Positions 33,905 to 62,819 of a DNA stretch of 64,000 bases are shown piece by piece (position 1 is the stretch's first letter; the number at the start of each line of letters is the position of its first letter). Source of the stretch: a virus (lineage: Duplodnaviria; Caudoviricetes); the IMG/VR virus record IMGVR_UViG_3300027759_003166. One strand, 5' to 3'. The notes beneath the pieces were generated by a model. It saw only the letters and a list, made by a program, of their open reading frames with translations. It made no database searches and was not told the DNA's origin. The translations under genes were made by a program, and so were the position numbers.

Positions 33905-34573
33905 ATGTTTTTAGATAACAAATACACAAAAATTTATTATAAATTAATCAATAATGCATTATTGCGAAATCATGTTAAACTACCACATGATGGATTTCAA
34001 GTACATCATATAATACCAAAGTGTATTGGTGGAACCGATAATAAATCAAATCTCGTAACATTACATTTTAAAGAACATAGGGTATGTCATTGTTTATTAA
34101 TCAAAATGCAAATCACTAAATCTGCAGAAATTAAAATGCGACATGCTTATGGTTTTTTTAACAAAAGTAGTCGGTACAATGGACCTAGATATAAACGAGG
34201 TAAGGACAACATTTTCTCCAACCCTAAGATTATTGAGCAAGTTCGAAGTAGAATGATACATAATAATCCTATGAAAAATTCTGCTATACAAGAAAAACGG
34301 TTAGTATCGTGGAAATCTAATCGTGCCGCTAAAAACTTTATACCTCCAAGAATACTTAAAGATAAATTTATTACACCATTTGGTATATTTAAAACTAAAA
34401 AAGAAATACAGAAAGTTTTAAACATACCTGAATGGACTTTAAATACCATCTACAATAATTTAGATTCTTTTCCTATATCAAATGGAAGAAGTAGTAAAAA
34501 GATTGCACATTTAAATATTGATATAAACAAGACTTGGAAAGATAATGGATTTGACTTACTTACCGTTTCTTGA
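33905..34573 (+). mobile_element. free-standing HNH homing endonuclease
   Basis: QVHHIIPKCIGG..NLV.L..EH...H; antisense to neighbours, overlaps folE 3' end by 18 bp. Confidence 0.75.
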
Positions 34574-35350
34574 TTGAAGTAATATATTATCAAAGAACTC
34601 TTTTTTTGTTCCTTTATCAGTATTAAACGCACCTTTAAGTACAGTAGTTTGAGTTAAAGAACTATGTGCCATTATGCCTCTATTGGTGCAGCACCCATGT
34701 TCGGCTTCGAGATAAACAGCTACGTTTTCGCTGTCTGTGGCTTTCATGATTTCACGAGCAATGTCGTTACAAAGTTCTTCTTGTAGAGTACCGCGTCTAG
34801 CACACCATTGTGCGATGCGTGTATACTTACTTAATCCTATTAACTTCTGCGCGGCCAAGATTCCGATATAGGCAACGCCACTAACAGGTTGATGATGATG
34901 ACTACACATTGATTTAAGTTCACTACGAACTACCAACATTCCTTCATACCGTTCATCGCTGTCATTTGGAAATGCAGTTGCATCAGGTGCCGTCTCATAT
35001 CTACCTGCCATAATTTCATTGAAATACATCTTGGCCAAACGACGAGCAGTGCCTTTACTATTAGGATCATTCTCTCGATCAATAAGCAATGTATCCAATA
35101 CAGTTTCAAATGCTTCTGTGGCTTCGTTAATCAAGTGTTCCTTGTCAGATTCTGCAATATAGTCACTGATATTGTCACCAGCCCAAAATCTTTTACCGTC
35201 AAGACGCATACGGCTACGTAACGCCTCGCTCAAATACTTGCCAGGACTATCTTTCTTAGCAAATAATTTATGCCCGTCAACTGGCACATACTCTTGTGCC
35301 GTAATTCCATTTATAGTTGGATCAGGTTTAAATGTTCTATTTTCACTCAA
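34556..35350 (-). CDS. folE: GTP cyclohydrolase I
   Basis: TARRLAKMY, SMCSHH, GLSK, LQEE, HGCC..RG. Confidence 0.93.
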   Translation of the reverse strand: MSENRTFKPDPTINGITAQEYVPVDGHKLFAKKDSPGKYLSEALRSRMRLDGKRFWAGDNISDYIAESDKEHLINEATEAFETVLDTLLIDRENDPNSKGTARRLAKMYFNEIMAGRYETAPDATAFPNDSDERYEGMLVVRSELKSMCSHHHQPVSGVAYIGILAAQKLIGLSKYTRIAQWCARRGTLQEELCNDIAREIMKATDSENVAVYLEAEHGCCTNRGIMAHSSLTQTTVLKGAFNTDKGTKKEFFDNILLQSRNGK

Positions 35351-37413: not shown

Positions 37414-37739
37414 ACAGAAAAGCTAGATCCACAACCACAAGTGGATTGAGCATTAGGATTTTTAATTATAAAATTTGATCCCATGAGTTCTTCTTTGTAA
37501 TCTATTGTAGCACCTTGTAAGTATTGCATACTTATAGCATCTACCAACACGGTCATGCCTGGTTTTTTAATTACAAAATCGTCTTCATTTTTTTCTTCGT
37601 CAAGAGTGAACCCATAATTAAATCCACTGCATCCGCCACCTTGTACAAAAGTTCTTAACATTATTTTTGGATTATTTTCTTCTGCAAGAATATCTGCAAT
37701 TTTAAGTATTGCAGAGTTAGTGATTTCAATTTGATCCAT
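37410..37739 (-). CDS. erpA: A-type Fe-S carrier (ErpA-like)
   Basis: [22 protein letters not shown]. Confidence 0.85.
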
Positions 37740-38106
37740 GCTTGCTCCTATAATCAGTTATCGCCGCCTTGATTGCATCTTCTGCAAGTATGCTGCAATG
37801 TATCTTAACTGGAGGGAGGACTAATTCTTCAGCAATTTTTGAATTAGTAATTGTTCCTGCTTGGTCAAGAGTTTTGCCTTTAATCCATTCAGTAACAAGG
37901 CTTGAGCTGGCAATTGCACTTCCACAGCCGTATGTTTTAAACCTTGCATCTGTAATGATTCCGTCTTCTACTTTTATTTGTAATTTCATTACATCCCCAC
38001 ACGCAGGTGCTCCTACCATACCTGTACCTATAGAATCATCTATATCAAACTTACCCACATTACGAGGGTTTTCATAATGATCAATTACAATATCCGAGTA
38101 TGCCAT
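37726..38106 (-). CDS. iscU: Fe-S scaffold IscU
   Basis: [40 protein letters not shown]. Confidence 0.95.
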
Positions 38107-38107
38107 A

Positions 38108-38434
38108 TTAAATCCTAAAACTTTCTCCACAGCCGCAACGATCGCGTTCCTGTGGATTGTTAAAGTCAAACCCTTCATTGAGTCCTTGTTTTTTCCAGTC
38201 TATTTCAAGACCGTTTAGATAAACAGAATCTCTCCCATTTACCCAAACTGTTACTCCATGACTATCGTATTTAAACCAGTCGCGAGTAACCGGTGCTTGA
38301 TCTATATATTCTAATACATAGGCCAATCCCGAGCAACCTGTAGTTCGAACACCAACTTTAAGTCCTATGCCCTTGCCACGTTTAACTAATTGTTGTTTGA
38401 CTTTATTTGATGCTTGTTCAGTCAATGTGATCAT
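38108..38434 (-). CDS. iscA: A-type Fe-S carrier IscA
   Basis: GVRTTGCSG, NPQE..CGCGESF. Confidence 0.9.
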   Translation of the reverse strand: MITLTEQASNKVKQQLVKRGKGIGLKVGVRTTGCSGLAYVLEYIDQAPVTRDWFKYDSHGVTVWVNGRDSVYLNGLEIDWKKQGLNEGFDFNNPQERDRCGCGESFRI

Positions 38435-49427: not shown

Positions 49428-50087
49428 TTATGCAGGTTCTACAAGAAAATTCTTGTACCATTCTGCTTCTGTTAACATTTCAACAATTTTATAATTATTA
49501 TTGTTTATCCAACTGTCAAACTCATTGAGATTTGAATTACTCACTTCTACAAACAATAAAGGTCTACATCTTGCTATAGTATCAGCAAGTCCAATGAGTA
49601 CATCCATTTCCATGCCTTCTACATCAATTTTAATCAAATCAATTTTTTTATTATAAAATAAGGCATCGCCTGGTACTTGAGGAATACCCGATATCATCCC
49701 TTGATCTTTTAAACTTGTTGCACCTAAATTATCGTTAAACATTTCTCGAATGCCTGAAAACCCAAATCTAGAACCCATTGCTAGACCTAGAAAATCTATG
49801 TTAACGGATTTGCAATAATTCAATGCTATATTTTGTAATAGTAATTTATAGCTCTGTGCTATTGGCTCAATGACAATTATTTCTTTTGGATTCAGATACC
49901 AATCAAAAAATATAGTGTGATTACCCACATTTGCCCCAACATCTACAATTGTAAGATCTGGAGGAATATATTTTATTAGTTTATCCAATTCATCTCGTTC
50001 ATAAAATTCACATTTAAGATGATGACGTTGAATAGTATCATTACCATTATCTACCATAAATTTTAATTTTCTCATATATGCTTTCAT
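49428..50087 (-). CDS. FkbM family methyltransferase
   Basis: VDVGANVGNH, IEP, IKIDVEGME. Confidence 0.88.
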   Translation of the reverse strand: MKAYMRKLKFMVDNGNDTIQRHHLKCEFYERDELDKLIKYIPPDLTIVDVGANVGNHTIFFDWYLNPKEIIVIEPIAQSYKLLLQNIALNYCKSVNIDFLGLAMGSRFGFSGIREMFNDNLGATSLKDQGMISGIPQVPGDALFYNKKIDLIKIDVEGMEMDVLIGLADTIARCRPLLFVEVSNSNLNEFDSWINNNNYKIVEMLTEAEWYKNFLVEPA

Positions 50088-51579: not shown

Positions 51580-51660
51580 CCATATAGAAACACATTGCTT
51601 CTGTCTCCAAGGACTTCTGATGGACTAGGTCACAGCCTAGGACAATGTGTTTTTATATGG
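51580..51660 (-). ncRNA. long-stem element IId
   Basis: 18-bp inverted repeat with one imperfect pair; two inner hairpins. Confidence 0.55.
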
Positions 51661-51732
51661 TAGGGGCACCCGGACTCGAACCGGGATAGATCGGGTAAAA
51701 GCCGACTATTCTAGCCTTTGAATTATACCCCC
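51658..51732 (-). tRNA. tRNA-Lys(UUU)
   Basis: Loop CUUUUAC, CCA. Confidence 0.88.
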
Positions 51733-51735
51733 ATA

Positions 51736-51810
51736 TGGTCCACAGCCCCAGAATCGAACTGGGCTCTCTCGGCTTAAGAGGCCGGACTTCGCCAGCAAAG
51801 TTTGCTGTGG
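51736..51810 (-). tRNA. tRNA-Lys(CUU)
   Basis: Loop CUCUUAA, A at position 8, CCA. Confidence 0.78.
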
Positions 51811-51872
51811 ATGGATTCGTAAATATTTTCTTTTACGTGCCATCCAGGACCATACGGGGGTCTAGGATGACA

Positions 51873-51896
51873 CTATCGTTTCGCTGAACGTTTCAT
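51873..51896 (-). other. 7-codon mini-ORF MKRSAKR with GGAG SD and downstream stems
   Basis: ATG AAA CGT TCA GCG AAA CGA TAG; GGAG 6 nt upstream. Confidence 0.35.
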
Positions 51897-51991
51897 GTCG
51901 TTCTCCTTTTAAAGTTTTCTCATAATAAAATACAGAGCACAAAATATAATTACTATCAATAGTAAGACCATAATATGCTCCTTGGTGTGGT

Positions 51992-52066
51992 TGGCAGGGA
52001 CTGAAGGTAACGCTCCTTCTCACCCAGTTTCAAAGACTGGTATCTGCTCTTATCGATTTAATCCCT
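51992..52066 (-). tRNA. atypical tRNA-Gln(UUG)
   Basis: Loop CUUUGAA, CCA; non-canonical T-loop AGCGUUA and D-loop. Confidence 0.65.
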
Positions 52067-52162
52067 ATGTTATCTAACTCTTGTTTTGTTAATACAGATA
52101 TTTTTAATTCCGGATGTTGAGTTATTTCCCCTGCCAAACAACACAATGCCCCAACAATAAAA

Positions 52163-52217
52163 CAGGATGCTTATTTTTCAATTAAAAGTTGAATTTAAAA
52201 TTTGCTGTTCGCATCCT
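52163..52217 (-). ncRNA. ACAGCAA hairpin element D (carries Lys-type anticodon stem-loop)
   Basis: AGGAUGC-GAACAGCAA...GCAUCCUG; inner UUCAA-CUUUUAA-UUGAA. Confidence 0.6.
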
Positions 52218-52222
52218 AAAAG

Positions 52223-52297
52223 TGGCTCCCTCGGGAAGGATCGAACTTCCGACCAATTGGTTAACAGCCAACTGCTCTACCTCTGAGCTACAAGGGA
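52223..52297 (-). tRNA. tRNA-Asn(GUU)
   Basis: Loop CUGUUAA, G73, CCA. Confidence 0.93.
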
Positions 52298-52305
52298 ATA
52301 ATAAA

Positions 52306-52516
52306 TTTGTAAGTAGTTCCGCCCATATTATCGGAACCATTCACCTTATTATACAAGGCCGGCAAGGTCTCGGTACGTTACTTGGGAGTCCTCCAAATGA
52401 TACGCCAATTGTATACTAGTCTTCCGACCAGCCGGGCATCGAACCCGCATCCTTTTACTGTTTCAGTTGTTCGAACGAACCTAGACAGCGTGACTTCTCT
52501 TGCTAACACTTACAAA
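52306..52516 (-). ncRNA. about 210-nt multi-hairpin RNA candidate with internal T-arm
   Basis: 9-bp terminal inverted repeat tttgtaagt/acttacaaa; GCGGG-UUCGAUG-CCCG; several further hairpins. Confidence 0.45.
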
Positions 52517-52519
52517 ACT

Positions 52520-52594
52520 TGGAGTCGCATACGGGTTTCGATCCCGTCTAGTCACCTTGAAAGGGTGATGACCTCGCCAGAAGTCTAATGCGAC
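52520..52594 (-). tRNA. tRNA-Glu(UUC)
   Basis: Loop CUUUCAA, CCA. Confidence 0.88.
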
Positions 52595-52603
52595 ATAATA
52601 AAA

Positions 52604-52662
52604 CAGGATAGCATTTTTTTTCATTAACGTTGAAAGTTTTTTGAGTTTGCTGTTGCTATCCT
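52604..52662 (-). ncRNA. ACAGCAA hairpin element E
   Basis: AGGAUAGC-AACAGCAA...GCUAUCCUG; inner UUUCA-ACGUUAA-UGAAA. Confidence 0.6.
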
Positions 52663-52721
52663 AAAACTTGGTGGATAACAGATGCCGACCGTAAGGTATA
52701 AGCACCCGCTTCTCCATAATT

Positions 52722-52798
52722 TGGCGCCCCGGACGGGAATCGAACCCGTGACCTCAACCGTGACAGGGTTGCGTGATAAACCGCTACACTACCGGAGC
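52722..52798 (-). tRNA. tRNA-Asp(GUC)
   Basis: Loop CUGUCAC, G73, CCA. Confidence 0.93.
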
Positions 52799-52804
52799 TA
52801 AACT

Positions 52805-52880
52805 TGGTGGAGGATAACGGATTCGAACCGTTTGCTCCTGGTTGCAAACCAGGTGTGTTAGCCAAGTATACCAATCCCCC
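52805..52880 (-). tRNA. tRNA-Ala(UGC)
   Basis: G3-U70, loop UUUGCAA, CCA. Confidence 0.88.
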
Positions 52881-52885
52881 GAATA

Positions 52886-52971
52886 TGGTGGAGGCGGATG
52901 GATTCGAACCACCGTGCTTTTTACGGGCAAGATTTACAGTCTTGTGCAATCAACCTCTCTGCCACGCCTCC
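52886..52971 (-). tRNA. tRNA-Tyr(GUA)
   Basis: Class II, loop CUGUAAA, CCA. Confidence 0.93.
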
Positions 52972-52979
52972 AAAATTGT

Positions 52980-53134
52980 TACACACTCCCGCTACGCTTT
53001 TTGACGCGATTCAAAGTCGCGAAAGAGAATGTGTATATTAAAACATACTAATGAAATTGCACTACCTCAGTTTCACGCTGAGTTACCAGTAGTCACGGAG
53101 GCATTGTCCTCCTGCAAATAGTATGCTTTAATAT
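52980..53134 (-). ncRNA. long-stem elements IIe (52980-53036, imperfect) and IIf (53035-53134)
   Basis: IIf 16-bp inverted repeat atattaaaacatacta/tagtatgctttaatat (G-U on minus strand). Confidence 0.5.
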
Positions 53135-53239
53135 GACGAATTTTTTTATCTACAAGAAGATAATCCATCCTCGTCACCGCCCGTTTACCCCATGTTTATA
53201 GTGCAGGGTGTGGTCCTCGTTACCACATATTCACACTCG

Positions 53240-53276
53240 AAAAGCAAAAACCCCAGGGTGTTTAGTCCTAGGGTCC
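53240..53276 (-). terminator. intrinsic terminator of the leader (attenuator terminator)
   Basis: GACCCUAGG/CCUGGGGUU 9-bp stem followed by U-tract (UUUUUGCUUUU). Confidence 0.7.
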
Positions 53277-53299
53277 TTTGGAGTTAGTGTGTAGTTGTA

Positions 53300-53443
53300 T
53301 TACACTCTGGTCTCCTGGGACCCCTGGCTAATATAGCCCTCTGGTGTGCGATCATTAGATAGACTATCAAACGCCAACCAGCATGAGGGCATCTGCCCTA
53401 ATTTGGCTATCGTATGTTTATAGTTTCTAACTGCTGATTGCAT
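53300..53443 (-). CDS. 47-aa leader peptide containing all 20 amino acids
   Basis: MQSAVRNYKHTIAKLGQMPSCWLAFDSLSNDRTPEGYISQGSQETRV* by manual translation; below ORF-track cutoff. Confidence 0.6.
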   Translation of the reverse strand: MQSAVRNYKHTIAKLGQMPSCWLAFDSLSNDRTPEGYISQGSQETRV

Positions 53444-61338: not shown

Positions 61339-61639
61339 CATGTGGAGAGGATGGTTTATTGGCAACTTTGAACCAACTGTATTAAAAACTAAAGACTTTG
61401 AAGTAGGTATATTAACACACAAGAAAGATGAAGTATGGCCAGAACATTATCATGCCATTGCTACAGAATATAATGTATTAATAAGCGGGCACATGACAGT
61501 ATGTGGAGAAGAACTACATTCTGGAGATATTTTTATTATAGAACCCAACGAAATAGCAAGACCTGTGTTCCATGAAGATTGTATAATAGTATGTGTAAAA
61601 ACACCAAGTGTACCAAAGGATAAGTATGAAGTTTTTTAG
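61316..61639 (+). CDS. cupin-fold protein
   Basis: GWFIGNF, HYH..ATEYN, VKTP. Confidence 0.7.
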   Translation: MKIQKLDNMWRGWFIGNFEPTVLKTKDFEVGILTHKKDEVWPEHYHAIATEYNVLISGHMTVCGEELHSGDIFIIEPNEIARPVFHEDCIIVCVKTPSVPKDKYEVF

Positions 61640-62819
61640 AAACAGAGAAGAAATAGATATAAACAAATACTTCATAGCAACATATGTTATGAAATCGTCA
61701 ACTTCACTTAAAGATGCTGCGTGGAATCTTGCTATAGGTCAAAGTGTAGGAAATCCTAGTGTTCGTAATGAATGGGAAACTGATGACTTATTTGAAAATC
61801 ACAGTTGTATCATTTTAGGTGATGAAAGCTATATGTCCACACAGATCTCGGGTATTGTAGAAATTGCATTTCCTGTAGCAAACATTGATTGGGATACAGA
61901 CGGAATTAGTCAACTTCTTTGCCACCTGATGGGAGGACAAGTTGATATTGATATTATTAAAAAATGTCGTTTGATAAAACTTGAATTGCCAAACAATGTT
62001 ACTCAGCATTTTTTAGGTCCTAAATTTGGAATTACAGGTTTTAGACAATTCACAGGACAATACAATAAACCATTATTTGGTGGTATCATTAAACCAAAGA
62101 TTGGAGTTTCTCCAGAAGTATTGCTAGAAATGGTTAAGCAAATGGTCGATGGTGGAGTTGATTTTATTAAAGAAGATGAAATCATGAGCAATCCCGTATG
62201 TGCTCCATTGGAACATAGGGTAGACATGATTGCTAACTATCTAGCCAAACAAAGTCGTAAAGTTGTATTCTGTCACACCATTAATGCAGATCCACATATT
62301 ATTATAGACCGTGTTAAGCGTGTACATGAGTTAGGTGGTAATGGAGTTCACGTTAATGTGTTTAGTGGAATTGGTGTGTATAATAGTATTCGCAAATTAG
62401 ATCTACCTTTATATCTACATTATCAAAGTAGCGGAGCGAAATTACTAACTGATGTAAATCACAGGTTTAGTATTAGTTGGCCAGTAATGTGCCAGTTAGC
62501 AACACTAATGGGTGTTGATACTATACAAACTGGCATGGTTGGAGGATATAGTAATGATGATCCAGTGGAGATTAAAGAATGTTTAGAAATATTAAGAGCA
62601 GGTAATACTGTGCCTGCACTTAGTTGTGGAATGCATCCCGGATTAGTTAATAAGGTCACCGAACTTGCAGGGTTAGATTATTTGGCCAATGCAGGTGGAG
62701 CAGTTCATGGTCACCCTGGCGGTACAGTTGCAGGTGCGCGAGCCATGAGACAAGCAATAGATAAAACGCATAATACAGAATATGATCAAGCAATTAACAA
62801 ATGGGGATTAATAATATGA
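61626..62819 (+). CDS. RuBisCO-like protein (form IV-type)
   Basis: AIGQSVG, GPKFG, GGIIKPKIG, GVDFIKEDE, SCG, GGAVHGHP. Confidence 0.88.
   Translation: MKFFRNREEIDINKYFIATYVMKSSTSLKDAAWNLAIGQSVGNPSVRNEWETDDLFENHSCIILGDESYMSTQISGIVEIAFPVANIDWDTDGISQLLCHLMGGQVDIDIIKKCRLIKLELPNNVTQHFLGPKFGITGFRQFTGQYNKPLFGGIIKPKIGVSPEVLLEMVKQMVDGGVDFIKEDEIMSNPVCAPLEHRVDMIANYLAKQSRKVVFCHTINADPHIIIDRVKRVHELGGNGVHVNVFSGIGVYNSIRKLDLPLYLHYQSSGAKLLTDVNHRFSISWPVMCQLATLMGVDTIQTGMVGGYSNDDPVEIKECLEILRAGNTVPALSCGMHPGLVNKVTELAGLDYLANAGGAVHGHPGGTVAGARAMRQAIDKTHNTEYDQAINKWGLII

What the first reader, a model, noticed from the sequence alone, without database searches (positions are those of the whole stretch)
52163..52662. 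Anticodon stem-loop mimics displayed inside the ACAGCAA elements
Seen: the loop of element D folds as UUCAA-CUUUUAA-UUGAA, a 5-bp stem with the canonical 7-nt tRNA-Lys(UUU) anticodon loop. Element E gives UUUCA-ACGUUAA-UGAAA (GUU, Asn-like but without U33). Elements A and C carry a 7-nt UUCAAUU loop, which in C is a T-arm look-alike. The phage's own tRNA-Lys(UUU) has the altered loop CUUUUAC. Known: tRNA-Lys(UUU) is the target of PrrC and PARIS. Inference: the elements could be decoys that titrate anticodon nucleases or sentinels whose cleavage reports tRNase activity.
Basis: partly seen in the sequence, partly recalled or inferred. Interest (0 to 1): 0.72.

Follow-up and report, generated by a model that had tools for sequence, protein, structure and literature searches.

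The report
Anticodon-arm mimics on phage Y-like RNAs
Two ~60-base RNAs inside a lake phage's tRNA gene array each combine a conserved "handle", linked to a Ro60-like ring protein gene, with a hairpin that copies a tRNA anticodon arm; this mimicry recurs and looks selected across related phages, but its purpose (decoy, sensor or repair adaptor) is untested.

Summary
On the minus strand, element D (52217-52164) carries UUCAA-CUUUUAA-UUGAA, and element E (52662-52605) carries UUUCA-ACGUUAA-UGAAA.

In this window alone that could be chance, roughly 1 in 10. Across 138 unique short relatives from viral contigs it is not:
- 54 have a 5-bp stem with a 7-nt YU-NNN-R-N loop, against 2.8 +/- 1.7 in shuffles.
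- The loop frame C32 U33 / A37 A38 is almost fixed, while the triplet (12 kinds) and the stem (12 kinds) vary.

Longer relatives carry a whole circularly permuted tRNA: anticodon arm, T arm, closed acceptor stem, D arm. D and E therefore look like stripped-down forms of these.

All share a handle: a covarying closing helix, then AACAGCAA, ending in CUGU. The handle also sits on the ribosome-binding site of a neighbouring gene (42766-44187). I show that this gene's product folds like Ro60. So these are mini Y-RNA-like partners with tRNA-mimic cargo, next to conserved kinase and phosphoesterase genes of the kind that heal cut RNA ends.

The decoy/sentinel reading is compatible with this but untested. 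One of its arguments, the phage's altered tRNA-Lys loop, is specific to this phage.

This scan has already reported the protein-RNA pairing on this genome and on at least 11 others. One of those reports, on another genome, also mentions anticodon-arm mimics.

The parts
52164..52217 (-). Element D. Handle P1 is 52217-52211 paired with 52170-52164. G+AACAGCAA bulge at 52210-52202. Cargo hairpin 52193-52177 with loop CUUUUAA at 52188-52182 (Lys-UUU-like). Starts 5 nt after the CCA of tRNA-Asn.
   Evidence: A 65-nt contig from an RNA library covers 52157-52220.
52605..52662 (-). Element E. P1 is 52662-52655 paired with 52612-52605. AACAGCAA at 52654-52647. Cargo hairpin 52635-52619 with loop ACGUUAA at 52630-52624 (GUU triplet, no Y32/U33). 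An 11-nt tail UGUUUUAUUAU runs up to tRNA-Glu +1 at 52594.
   Evidence: RNA-library contigs of 60 and 65 nt cover 52606-52665.
44449..44525 (-). Element C. Handle plus three small hairpins, the last a T-arm look-alike UUUGG-UUCAAUU-CCAAA (44479-44463). Follows the CCA of tRNA-Met.
44267..44369 (-). Element B. Handle variant with UUCAGCAA and an 80-nt insert. First RNA of the transcription unit of the Ro60-like gene.
44203..44256 (-). Element A. Leader copy of the handle (GAAUGU/ACAUUC). It ends 2-3 nt before the Shine-Dalgarno AAGG of the Ro60-like gene.
   Evidence: The canonical handle is present in the leader in 66 of 74 related loci, and most of the rest carry covarying variants.
44404..44432 (-). 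Sigma-70-type promoter TTGACA-17-TACAAT in front of B, A and the Ro60-like gene.
42766..44187 (-). Ro60-like ring protein gene (Pfam DUF2828 + DUF7788; phrog_850 'RNA-binding protein').
   Evidence: The model has pLDDT 91.6, and the 13 best PDB matches are all Ro60/TROVE proteins.
41505..41966 (-). PNK-like P-loop kinase (AAA_33).
   Evidence: Linked to the Ro60-like gene in 53 of 64 loci.
40421..41011 (-). Calcineurin-like metallophosphoesterase.
   Evidence: Linked in 56 of 64 loci.
52223..52297 (-). tRNA-Asn(GUU). Its 3' CCA defines the 5' side of D.
52520..52594 (-). tRNA-Glu(UUC). Its 5' end (the RNase P site) defines the 3' side of E.
51658..51732 (-). Phage tRNA-Lys(UUU) with anticodon loop CUUUUAC (C38).

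Best explanation
D and E are two members of a large family of roughly 60- to 130-nt small RNAs that act as Y-RNA-like partners of a phage Ro60-like ring protein. Each RNA has two modules.

(1) The handle. It is a 6-8-bp closing helix whose sequence varies but always pairs, followed by an unpaired (N)AACAGCAA on the 5' strand, an A-rich 3' strand and a CUGU tail. This is the proposed protein-binding part. A bare copy of it sits right against the ribosome-binding site of the protein's own mRNA, which would allow feedback control.

(2) The cargo, derived from tRNA. In relatives it is a whole circularly permuted tRNA opened between the D arm and the anticodon arm, or one opened in the anticodon loop as in YrlA. 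In D and E only the anticodon arm is left.

The RNAs are probably released from the polycistronic tRNA transcript by the same cuts that trim the flanking tRNAs. P1 starts 5-9 nt after a CCA end, and the next tRNA starts 6-16 nt after P1.

The loop frame C32 U33 ... A37 A38 is kept while the triplet and the stem change. From this I infer that the cargo is selected to be read as an anticodon loop by some anticodon-loop-binding factor. I further infer that the particle works in tRNA damage handling together with the linked kinase and phosphoesterase, as a bait or adaptor for enzymes that cut or mend anticodon loops.

Shown: the anatomy, the family, covariation, gene linkage and the protein fold. 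Inferred: protein-RNA binding, processing, and the function.
For: Family and handle:
- The pattern scan returned 120 viral-contig loci, many with full elements.
- 214 unique elements occur in 2.08 Mb of fetched loci, with 33 different P1 arms, all compensated.
- On alignment A3, P1 is 100% paired and 4 of 7 pairs show changes on both sides. The covariation score is 0.483, against 0.123 +/- 0.013 in shuffles and 0.03-0.10 for slid partners.

Anticodon-arm cargo:
- Shuffle test: 79 of 138 short elements have a 5-bp/7-nt hairpin (23 +/- 4 in shuffles); 54 have a YU-NNN-R-N loop (2.8 +/- 1.7); 43 have CU-NNN-AA (0.5 +/- 0.8).
- Frame conservation with 12 triplets and 12 stems.
- The loops are the same heptamers as those of real phage tRNAs, but no mimic arm is identical to a real one, and the stems are AU-rich. 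These are therefore old copies with a maintained loop.
- At least 15 long elements have the order anticodon arm, then T arm, with a D-arm-like motif after it in eight of them.
- The Rfam YrlA model hits long forms below threshold: L002 43.7 bits (E 1.8e-6), L110 39.5 bits.

Protein:
- Pfam DUF2828 + DUF7788; phrog_850 'RNA-binding protein', E 2e-138.
- The best profile hits in the PDB are TROVE/Ro60 proteins, at the vWA motif.
- Model pLDDT 91.6. The Foldseek top 13 are all Ro60/TROVE, probability 1.00, TM 0.37-0.65.

Linkage:
- The canonical handle lies 66-70 nt before the start codon in 66 of 74 loci, and most of the rest carry covarying variants.
- It is also present with proteins only 59% and 42% identical.

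Placement:
- Fixed spacing to the flanking tRNAs.
- There is no strong promoter between 53501 and 50338, so D and E lie inside one transcript.

Repair context:
- AAA_33 kinase and metallophosphoesterase genes are linked to the Ro60-like gene in 53 and 56 of 64 loci.

RNA hint:
- Whole contigs of 60-65 nt in lake RNA libraries coincide with D (depth 63.5) and with E.
Against: - There is no direct evidence that the protein binds the handle or that the RNAs are processed as proposed. The RNA-library evidence is contigs only. Contigs can end where strains diverge, and the libraries may contain DNA.
- The cargo stems are marginal, at -0.7 to -1.1 kcal/mol.
- E lacks Y32/U33, and its closest kin drift further (ACGUUUA, AUGUUUA).
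- Many elements, including the leader copies and many long forms, have no recognisable anticodon arm, so the arm is not essential to the family.
- The sequences are related, so the shuffle statistics overstate independence. Single-linkage clustering could not separate lineages.
- Alignment A3 was chosen for having the hairpin, so its 90% pairing of the cargo stem is partly circular.
- The bias towards UUU and U36 may partly reflect AU-rich composition.
Confidence: 0.6

Rival explanations
1. First reader's specific reading. The anticodon-arm cargo is a decoy that occupies host anticodon nucleases (PrrC, RloC, PARIS AriB, colicin-like tRNases), or a sentinel whose cleavage reports them. For example, cleavage could free the Ro60-like ring and switch on repair.
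For: - The frame is kept while the triplet varies, as expected if specificity for different anticodons matters.
- UUU is the commonest triplet (16 of 39), followed by UCU, GUU, GCA, GCU and GUA. From my own knowledge, Lys, Arg, Asn and Tyr anticodons are the classical targets of PrrC/PARIS, colicin D and colicin E5.
- Whole permuted forms have a closed acceptor end, so they cannot be charged.
- Healing-type enzymes are linked.
- This phage's own tRNA-Lys has C38.
Against: - Nothing here touches a nuclease.
- 29 of 30 related tRNA-Lys(UUU) genes are canonical.
- The hairpins are weak and probably unmodified.
- A cleavable mimic does not titrate a turnover enzyme unless it binds without being cut.
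- Many family members lack the arm.
- AU-rich composition favours UUU.
Confidence: 0.2
2. Relic. The hairpins are leftovers of permuted tRNA-like Y RNAs. Only the handle matters, and the anticodon-like loop has no function of its own.
For: - Short forms look like deletion derivatives of long forms.
- The E lineage is decaying.
- Elements without any arm are common, and the leader copies need none.
Against: - A relic should lose the frame as fast as the triplet. Instead C32, U33, A37 and A38 are 92-100% kept on 12 different compensated stems.
- The frame is more uniform than in real phage tRNAs, where C32 is 62% and A38 is 76%.
Confidence: 0.15
3. Cis-acting punctuation. The elements are terminators, attenuators or RNase entry sites of the tRNA operon, not independent RNAs.
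For: - P1 is followed by UGUUUU.
- Spacing to the flanking tRNAs is fixed.
Against: - The scan finds no terminator-like site at D or E.
- Eleven tRNAs downstream of E, nine of them also downstream of D, have no strong promoter of their own before 50338.
- The loop enclosed by P1 is 40-130 nt.
- The same handle sits in an mRNA leader next to the ribosome-binding site.
- The cargo is tRNA-like.
Confidence: 0.04
4. DNA-level element. These would be recombination sites of a cassette system (attC-like folded single strands) or miniature mobile elements that target tRNA ends.
For: - Structure is conserved rather than sequence.
- The centre is variable.
- AAC...GTT-like ends are present.
- Cargo differs under the same P1 in close relatives.
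Against: - All copies lie on the transcribed strand of the array.
- There is tight linkage to an RNA-binding-type protein and its ribosome-binding site.
- G-U pairs are tolerated in the cargo stems.
- I saw no integrase among the proteins scanned.
Confidence: 0.02

Closest known systems
Bacterial and phage Ro60 (Rsr) with YrlA-type Y RNAs (Rfam RF02553; Chen et al. 2014, PMC4201824)
   Same: - A ring protein with the Ro60 fold is encoded next to small RNAs whose 5' and 3' ends form a closing helix and whose distal part mimics tRNA.
- Long relatives of D and E get sub-threshold full-length YrlA hits.
- There is an RNA-repair gene context.
   Different: - The protein is a distant branch: Pfam DUF2828/DUF7788, not TROVE, with only weak sequence similarity (E about 0.07).
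- The handle (AACAGCAA bulge) is unlike the YrlA/Y RNA binding helix.
- YrlA replaces the anticodon arm with the protein-binding stem, whereas many of these RNAs keep an anticodon arm, and D and E keep only that.
- There are many copies, scattered through a tRNA array.
Deinococcus radiodurans Yrn1 (described in PMC4201824)
   Same: A Y RNA that can be drawn with a possible anticodon arm of 5 bp.
   Different: Its loop has 6 nt, and no anticodon-loop frame is reported. There is a single RNA, and its handle is different.
Thermus phage phiLo Ro60 with Yrl1/Yrl2 (PMC12135203; PDB 9KOP, 9L5Y)
   Same: - A phage Ro60 with partner RNAs encoded just upstream of its gene.
- It is among the best structural matches to this protein.
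   Different: - The Yrl RNAs are described as stem-bulge-stem with a CGAA motif. The terms tRNA-like and anticodon do not occur in that paper's text.
- It is a canonical TROVE protein.
Class I RNAs of dictyostelid amoebae (Rfam RF01414; Kjellin et al. 2021, PMC7919456)
   Same: - Size of 42-65 nt.
- A 6-bp terminal helix conserved in pairing but not in sequence.
- A conserved motif ending in ACAGCAA directly after the 5' strand of the helix.
- A variable AU-rich centre and a 3' end of CUGU.
- RF01414 is the best Rfam match to both D and E, full length: 19.6 and 18.4 bits.
   Different: - The scores are far below the gathering score of 41.5.
- These are eukaryotic genes with their own promoter element.
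- The known binder is an RRM protein, and no tRNA-like cargo is described.
- Common descent is not shown.
Circularly permuted tRNA genes of the red alga Cyanidioschyzon merolae (from my own knowledge)
   Same: In the gene, the 3' half of a tRNA precedes the 5' half.
   Different: Those are matured into working tRNAs. Here the acceptor end is closed by a loop without CCA, so no working tRNA can result.
Phage answers to anticodon nucleases: T4 Pnkp + Rnl1 against PrrC, and the T5 tRNA-Lys variant against PARIS (from my own knowledge; reviewed in PMC7824862)
   Same: The theme is protecting or mending anticodon loops. A kinase and a phosphoesterase lie next to the system here.
   Different: Those use repair enzymes or resistant working tRNAs. 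As far as I could find, no displayed anticodon-arm mimic on a Ro60-like particle has been described.

Membership tests
tRNA anticodon stem-loop (as a structural mimic) | 5-bp stem closing a 7-nt loop | tested here: met
   D and E both have it. In the family, 79 of 138 short elements have it, against 23 +/- 4 in shuffles.
tRNA anticodon stem-loop (as a structural mimic) | Loop frame Y32 U33 ... R37 | tested here: met
   D: C32 U33 A37 A38. In the family: 36/39, 38/39, 39/39 and 37/39. E itself fails at Y32 and U33 (its loop is ACGUUAA).
tRNA (working gene) | Acceptor stem with a free CCA end, D arm and T arm | tested here: not met
   D and E have none of these. Long relatives have the arms, but in permuted order and with a closed acceptor end.
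YrlA / Y RNA (RF02553) | Reaches the Rfam gathering score (69 bits) | tested here: not met
   D and E get no YrlA hit. Long relatives score 28-44 bits.
YrlA / Y RNA (RF02553) | Encoded beside a Ro60 (TROVE + vWA) protein | tested here: met
   The neighbouring protein has the Ro60 fold, though it is outside Pfam TROVE. A handle copy is present in the leader in 66 of 74 loci, and most of the rest carry covarying variants.
YrlA / Y RNA (RF02553) | tRNA-like domain with T arm, D arm and closed acceptor stem, with the anticodon arm replaced by the Ro-binding stem | tested here: inconclusive
   Some long relatives fit this (L002, L036, L050). Others keep the anticodon arm. D and E have only that arm.
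YrlA / Y RNA (RF02553) | Bound by Ro60 | not testable with these tools
   Needs a gel-shift or pull-down experiment.
Dictyostelid Class I RNA (RF01414) | Reaches the Rfam gathering score (41.5 bits) | tested here: not met
   19.6 bits (D) and 18.4 bits (E). These are the best hits and are full length.
Dictyostelid Class I RNA (RF01414) | 6-bp terminal helix, conserved motif next to its 5' strand, CUGU end, about 60 nt | tested here: met
   compared with the paper's description. Seven of the 11 motif letters (ACAGCAA) are shared.
Intrinsic terminator | GC-rich hairpin with a short loop, directly followed by a U run, ending the transcript | tested here: not met
   No such site is found at D or E. 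The tRNAs downstream of them have no strong promoter of their own before 50338.
Anticodon-nuclease decoy or sentinel | Bound or cut by an anticodon nuclease | not testable with these tools
   No computation available here addresses it.

The most novel reading that the evidence does not exclude
The Ro60-like particle is a phage tRNA-damage surveillance device. Its interchangeable anticodon-arm or whole-tRNA baits are recognised by host anticodon nucleases. Cutting or occupying the bait frees or redirects the ring protein. The linked kinase and phosphoesterase then heal broken tRNAs, while the handle on the gene's own leader sets the dose. The same handle in amoebal Class I RNAs would then hint at a much wider, unrecognised Ro60-like RNA system.
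Probability: 0.15. Interest if true: 0.9.

Novelty: new variant of a known kind. Interest (0 to 1): 0.66.

Why it matters
Y RNAs of the YrlA type were known to copy the body of a tRNA but not its anticodon arm. Here a very abundant phage family attaches a tRNA mimic to a handle that travels with a Ro60-like protein. The protein has thousands of relatives in metagenomes. The mimic is often a whole tRNA including the anticodon arm, and in its smallest form only that arm.

The loop frame is kept while the triplet changes. That pattern points to a partner that reads anticodon loops.

This gives a concrete and cheap set of experiments on two open questions: what Ro60-type particles do in microbes, and how phages with large tRNA arrays deal with tRNA-cutting defences. 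If the cargo turns out to be only a relic, the family is still an uncatalogued RNA class that annotation pipelines currently miss.

Tried and rejected
- Close phage relatives: a megablast of 51600-53300 against GenBank phages found only tRNA-sized matches. No close cultured relative turned up, and no whole genome is held for this window.
- Rfam over 40-64 kb at E <= 1 showed nothing at the elements. The weak Class I hits appear only when the elements are scanned alone.
- The first structure prediction, on a shallow alignment of proteins >= 80% identical, failed (pLDDT 44). It was redone with 72 diverse sequences.
- A plain sequence search of the protein against the PDB found nothing.
- A literature search for DUF2828 gave only incidental plant and tardigrade mentions. 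Searches for permuted tRNA in phages, anticodon-nuclease decoys and TROVE/vWA/phage found no description of this RNA family.
- Clustering the short inserts by edit distance, to get independent lineages, lumped 124 of 138 into one cluster. The 11-representative test is too small to be useful.
- No link was found between the mimic's triplet and the anticodons of the flanking tRNAs: 4 of 54 are the same.
- A promoter reading of the elements was rejected: the -35/-10-like hexamers inside D and E are not in register between copies (read; 9/12 matches only).
- Infernal pairs AACAG with the 3' CUGU(U) as an alternative outer helix. Both segments are invariant, and my element finder required the UG, so this cannot be tested here. 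I treat it as unresolved, not as evidence.
- Runs X1, X2, X4 and X5 hold only parts of the stretch, at 90-99% likeness. Uncovered parts mean nothing.
Full report
**What is in the window**

The window is part of an uncultured lake phage. The contig carrying the identical protein is 213,787 bp. It has 28 tRNA genes on the minus strand between 44.5 and 53 kb.

The 'ACAGCAA elements' are all on that strand. D lies at 52217-52164 and E at 52662-52605. Three more, C, B and A (44525-44203), stand directly in front of a 473-aa gene at 42766-44187.

Each element has:
- a closing helix, P1 (GGAUGC/GCAUCC in D, GGAUAGC/GCUAUCC in E, GGAUAC/GUAUCC in C, GAAUGU/ACAUUC in A);
- an unpaired (N)AACAGCAA just after the 5' strand of P1;
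- a variable insert and an A-rich 3' strand;
- CUG(U) after the helix.

- D contains UUCAA-CUUUUAA-UUGAA, and E contains UUUCA-ACGUUAA-UGAAA, exactly as described.
- Thermodynamics does not settle D. The whole-element fold prefers the overlapping UUAAA-UUCAACU-UUUAA. Comparison does settle it (see below).
- C carries a T-loop look-alike.
- A's UUCAAUU loop rests on four A-U pairs and is not kept in homologous leader copies.
- The phage's tRNA-Lys(UUU) loop is CUUUUAC.
- In this window alone, one fully canonical loop among five elements is about a 1-in-10 event, judging from shuffles.

**Relatives**

A 14-base pattern from the handle pulled 120 viral-contig loci, many with complete elements. 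A scan with the neighbouring protein pulled 80 more loci.

In 2.08 Mb of these loci I find 214 distinct elements with 33 different, always complementary, P1 arms. Insert lengths fall in two groups: about 25-40 nt (138 elements) and mostly 85-100 nt (76 elements).

**The long inserts are tRNA-like**

At least 15 read anticodon arm, then T arm. In eight of these a D-arm-like motif follows, and in examples read in full (L110, L082, L015) a closed acceptor hairpin lies between the two. That is a complete tRNA circularly permuted at the 26/27 junction, with no free CCA end.

Others (L002, L036, L050) are opened in the anticodon loop, as in YrlA. The Rfam YrlA model hits them over its full length, but below threshold (43.7, 39.5 and 30.2 bits).

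**The short inserts are mostly what is left of the anticodon arm**

| Feature among 138 short elements | Observed | Dinucleotide shuffles |
|---|---|---|
| 5-bp/7-nt hairpin | 79 | 23 +/- 4 |
| YU-NNN-R-N loop | 54 | 2.8 +/- 1.7 (max 9) |
| CU-NNN-AA loop | 43 | 0.5 +/- 0.8 |

In 39 aligned, in-register members the frame is C32 36/39, U33 38/39, A37 39/39 and A38 37/39. The triplet takes 12 values (UUU 16, UCU 7, GUU 3, GCA 3, and others) and the stem takes 12 forms.

On that alignment:
- P1 is 100% paired, with compensatory change at 4 of 7 pairs.
- The cargo stem is 90% paired, with compensatory change at 4 of 5 pairs. The rows were picked for having the hairpin, so this figure is partly circular.

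E belongs to a lineage with the same stem. There the canonical CUGUUAA, CUGUAAA and CUUUUAA coexist with decayed loops (ACGUUAA, ACGUUUA, AUGUUUA).

The mimic loops are the same heptamers as in the 1,203 distinct real tRNAs of these loci. However, the stems have about 2 of 10 G or C bases against about 6 of 10, and no mimic arm equals a real one. So these are old copies whose loops have been kept.

The frame is also more uniform than in real tRNAs, where C32 is 62% and A38 is 76%.

**The partner protein**

- The 473-aa protein is Pfam DUF2828 + DUF7788 and phrog_850 'RNA-binding protein'.
- A profile of 72 diverse relatives finds TROVE/Ro60 chains as its best, weak PDB matches, at the vWA metal-site motif.
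- The model built on that alignment is confident (pLDDT 91.6, pTM 0.91).
- Its 13 best structural matches are all Ro60/TROVE proteins from frog, human, Deinococcus and Thermus phage phiLo, aligned over the full length.

**Linkage between handle and protein**

- The canonical handle lies 66-70 nt before the start codon, ending 2-3 nt before the Shine-Dalgarno sequence, in 66 of 74 loci.
- Most of the remaining loci have covarying variants (GUUUAG/CUAAAC, GGUUAU/AUAACC).
- It is still there beside proteins only 59% and 42% identical. The first of these has six tandem elements upstream.

The leader copies have no anticodon arm. So the arm is not the proposed protein-binding part; it is cargo.

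**Placement and expression**

- In 98 of 214 elements, P1 starts 5-9 nt after a tRNA's CCA (mode 6). In 88, the next tRNA begins 6-16 nt after P1.
- There is no strong promoter between 53501 and 50338, and no terminator-like site at D or E. D and E therefore sit inside a polycistronic tRNA transcript, and the flanking tRNA cuts would release them.
- In lake RNA libraries, whole contigs of 65 nt (depth 63.5) and of 60 and 65 nt coincide with D and E. This is only a weak hint, because contigs can break where strains diverge and DNA may be present in the libraries.

**Context**

A PNK-like kinase (41505-41966) and a metallophosphoesterase (40421-41011) follow the Ro60-like gene. They stay linked to it, in varying order, in 53 and 56 of 64 loci. 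These are the activities that heal 5'-OH and 2',3'-cyclic phosphate ends.

A review of jumbo phages notes ROT/TROVE proteins with a tRNA-like partner as a repair platform (PMC7824862).

**Reading**

The best-supported account is that D and E are mini Y-RNA-like partners of a Ro60-like protein, with a tRNA-derived anticodon-arm cargo that is under selection as an anticodon-loop mimic. What reads that loop is unknown.

Its supporting contrast with the phage's own tRNA-Lys holds for this phage only: 29 of 30 relatives are canonical.

A pure-relic reading is disfavoured by the kept frame. It is not excluded, especially for E.

**Comparison with what is known**

- The system works like Rsr/YrlA (PMC4201824) and like phiLo Ro60/Yrl (PMC12135203). 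It fails their membership tests: it is below the Rfam threshold, has a different handle, and its protein is outside Pfam TROVE.
RF01414 is the best, full-length but sub-threshold, Rfam match to both D and E. The published description also matches the handle: a 6-bp covarying end helix, a motif ending in ACAGCAA, a CUGU end, and a length of about 60 nt. Homology is not shown.
- I found no paper describing this RNA family or its anticodon-arm cargo.

**Earlier notes of this scan**

I read these only. The scan has already reported the protein-handle pairing on this genome and on at least 11 others. One report on another genome mentions anticodon-arm mimics.

Noticed in passing
window 52669-52721 (- strand): E is not preceded by a called tRNA. 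It follows a ~50-nt segment after tRNA-Asp that ends in ...UUAUCCACCA, a CCA-type end without a recognisable tRNA.
   Followed up: no
window 52298-52519 (- strand): The 220-nt spacer between tRNA-Asn and tRNA-Glu has a T-arm-like CGGG-UUCGAUG-CCCG (about 52447-52433). ARAGORN and Rfam call no tRNA there. RNA-library contigs cover 52283-52416.
   Followed up: no
window 44267-44369 (- strand): Element B uses UUCAGCAA instead of AACAGCAA and has an 80-nt insert with no tRNA-like arm that my patterns recognise. An element in the same position (its 3' arm and CUGUU tail) is visible just upstream of the leader copy in most related loci, and several UUCAGCAA elements with 80-88-nt inserts occur among them.
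   Followed up: partly
window 47555-48217 and 49428-50087 (- strand): Two FkbM-type methyltransferase genes sit inside the tRNA array. One has a weak TRM5/TYW2-like match.
   Followed up: no
window 61608-62819 (+ strand): A 403-aa ORF matches the RuBisCO large-chain catalytic domain (E 1e-36), which is unusual for a phage.
   Followed up: no
window 34556-35350 and 37726-38178 (- strand): GTP cyclohydrolase I and a NifU-like protein are encoded a few kb downstream of the Ro60-like gene.
   Followed up: no
L201:3900-4395 (+ strand): A phage whose Ro60-like protein is only 59% identical has six tandem handle elements, with new P1 variants (GGGAUAG, GGACUGC, AGACUAC), between a promoter and the gene. 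The last one has UACUGCAA.
   Followed up: partly
A3 rows with P1 GGAUAGC (for example window E, L001, L028, L037, L124): Under one and the same P1 helix, the cargo differs between related phages (triplets GUU, UUU, UGA, GUA). This suggests fast turnover or swapping of the cargo while the handle stays fixed.
   Followed up: partly
all tRNA-linked elements: AACAG of the handle is complementary to the CUGUU that follows P1. Infernal uses it as an alternative outer helix. It could be a switch or a coincidence of two invariant motifs.
   Followed up: no
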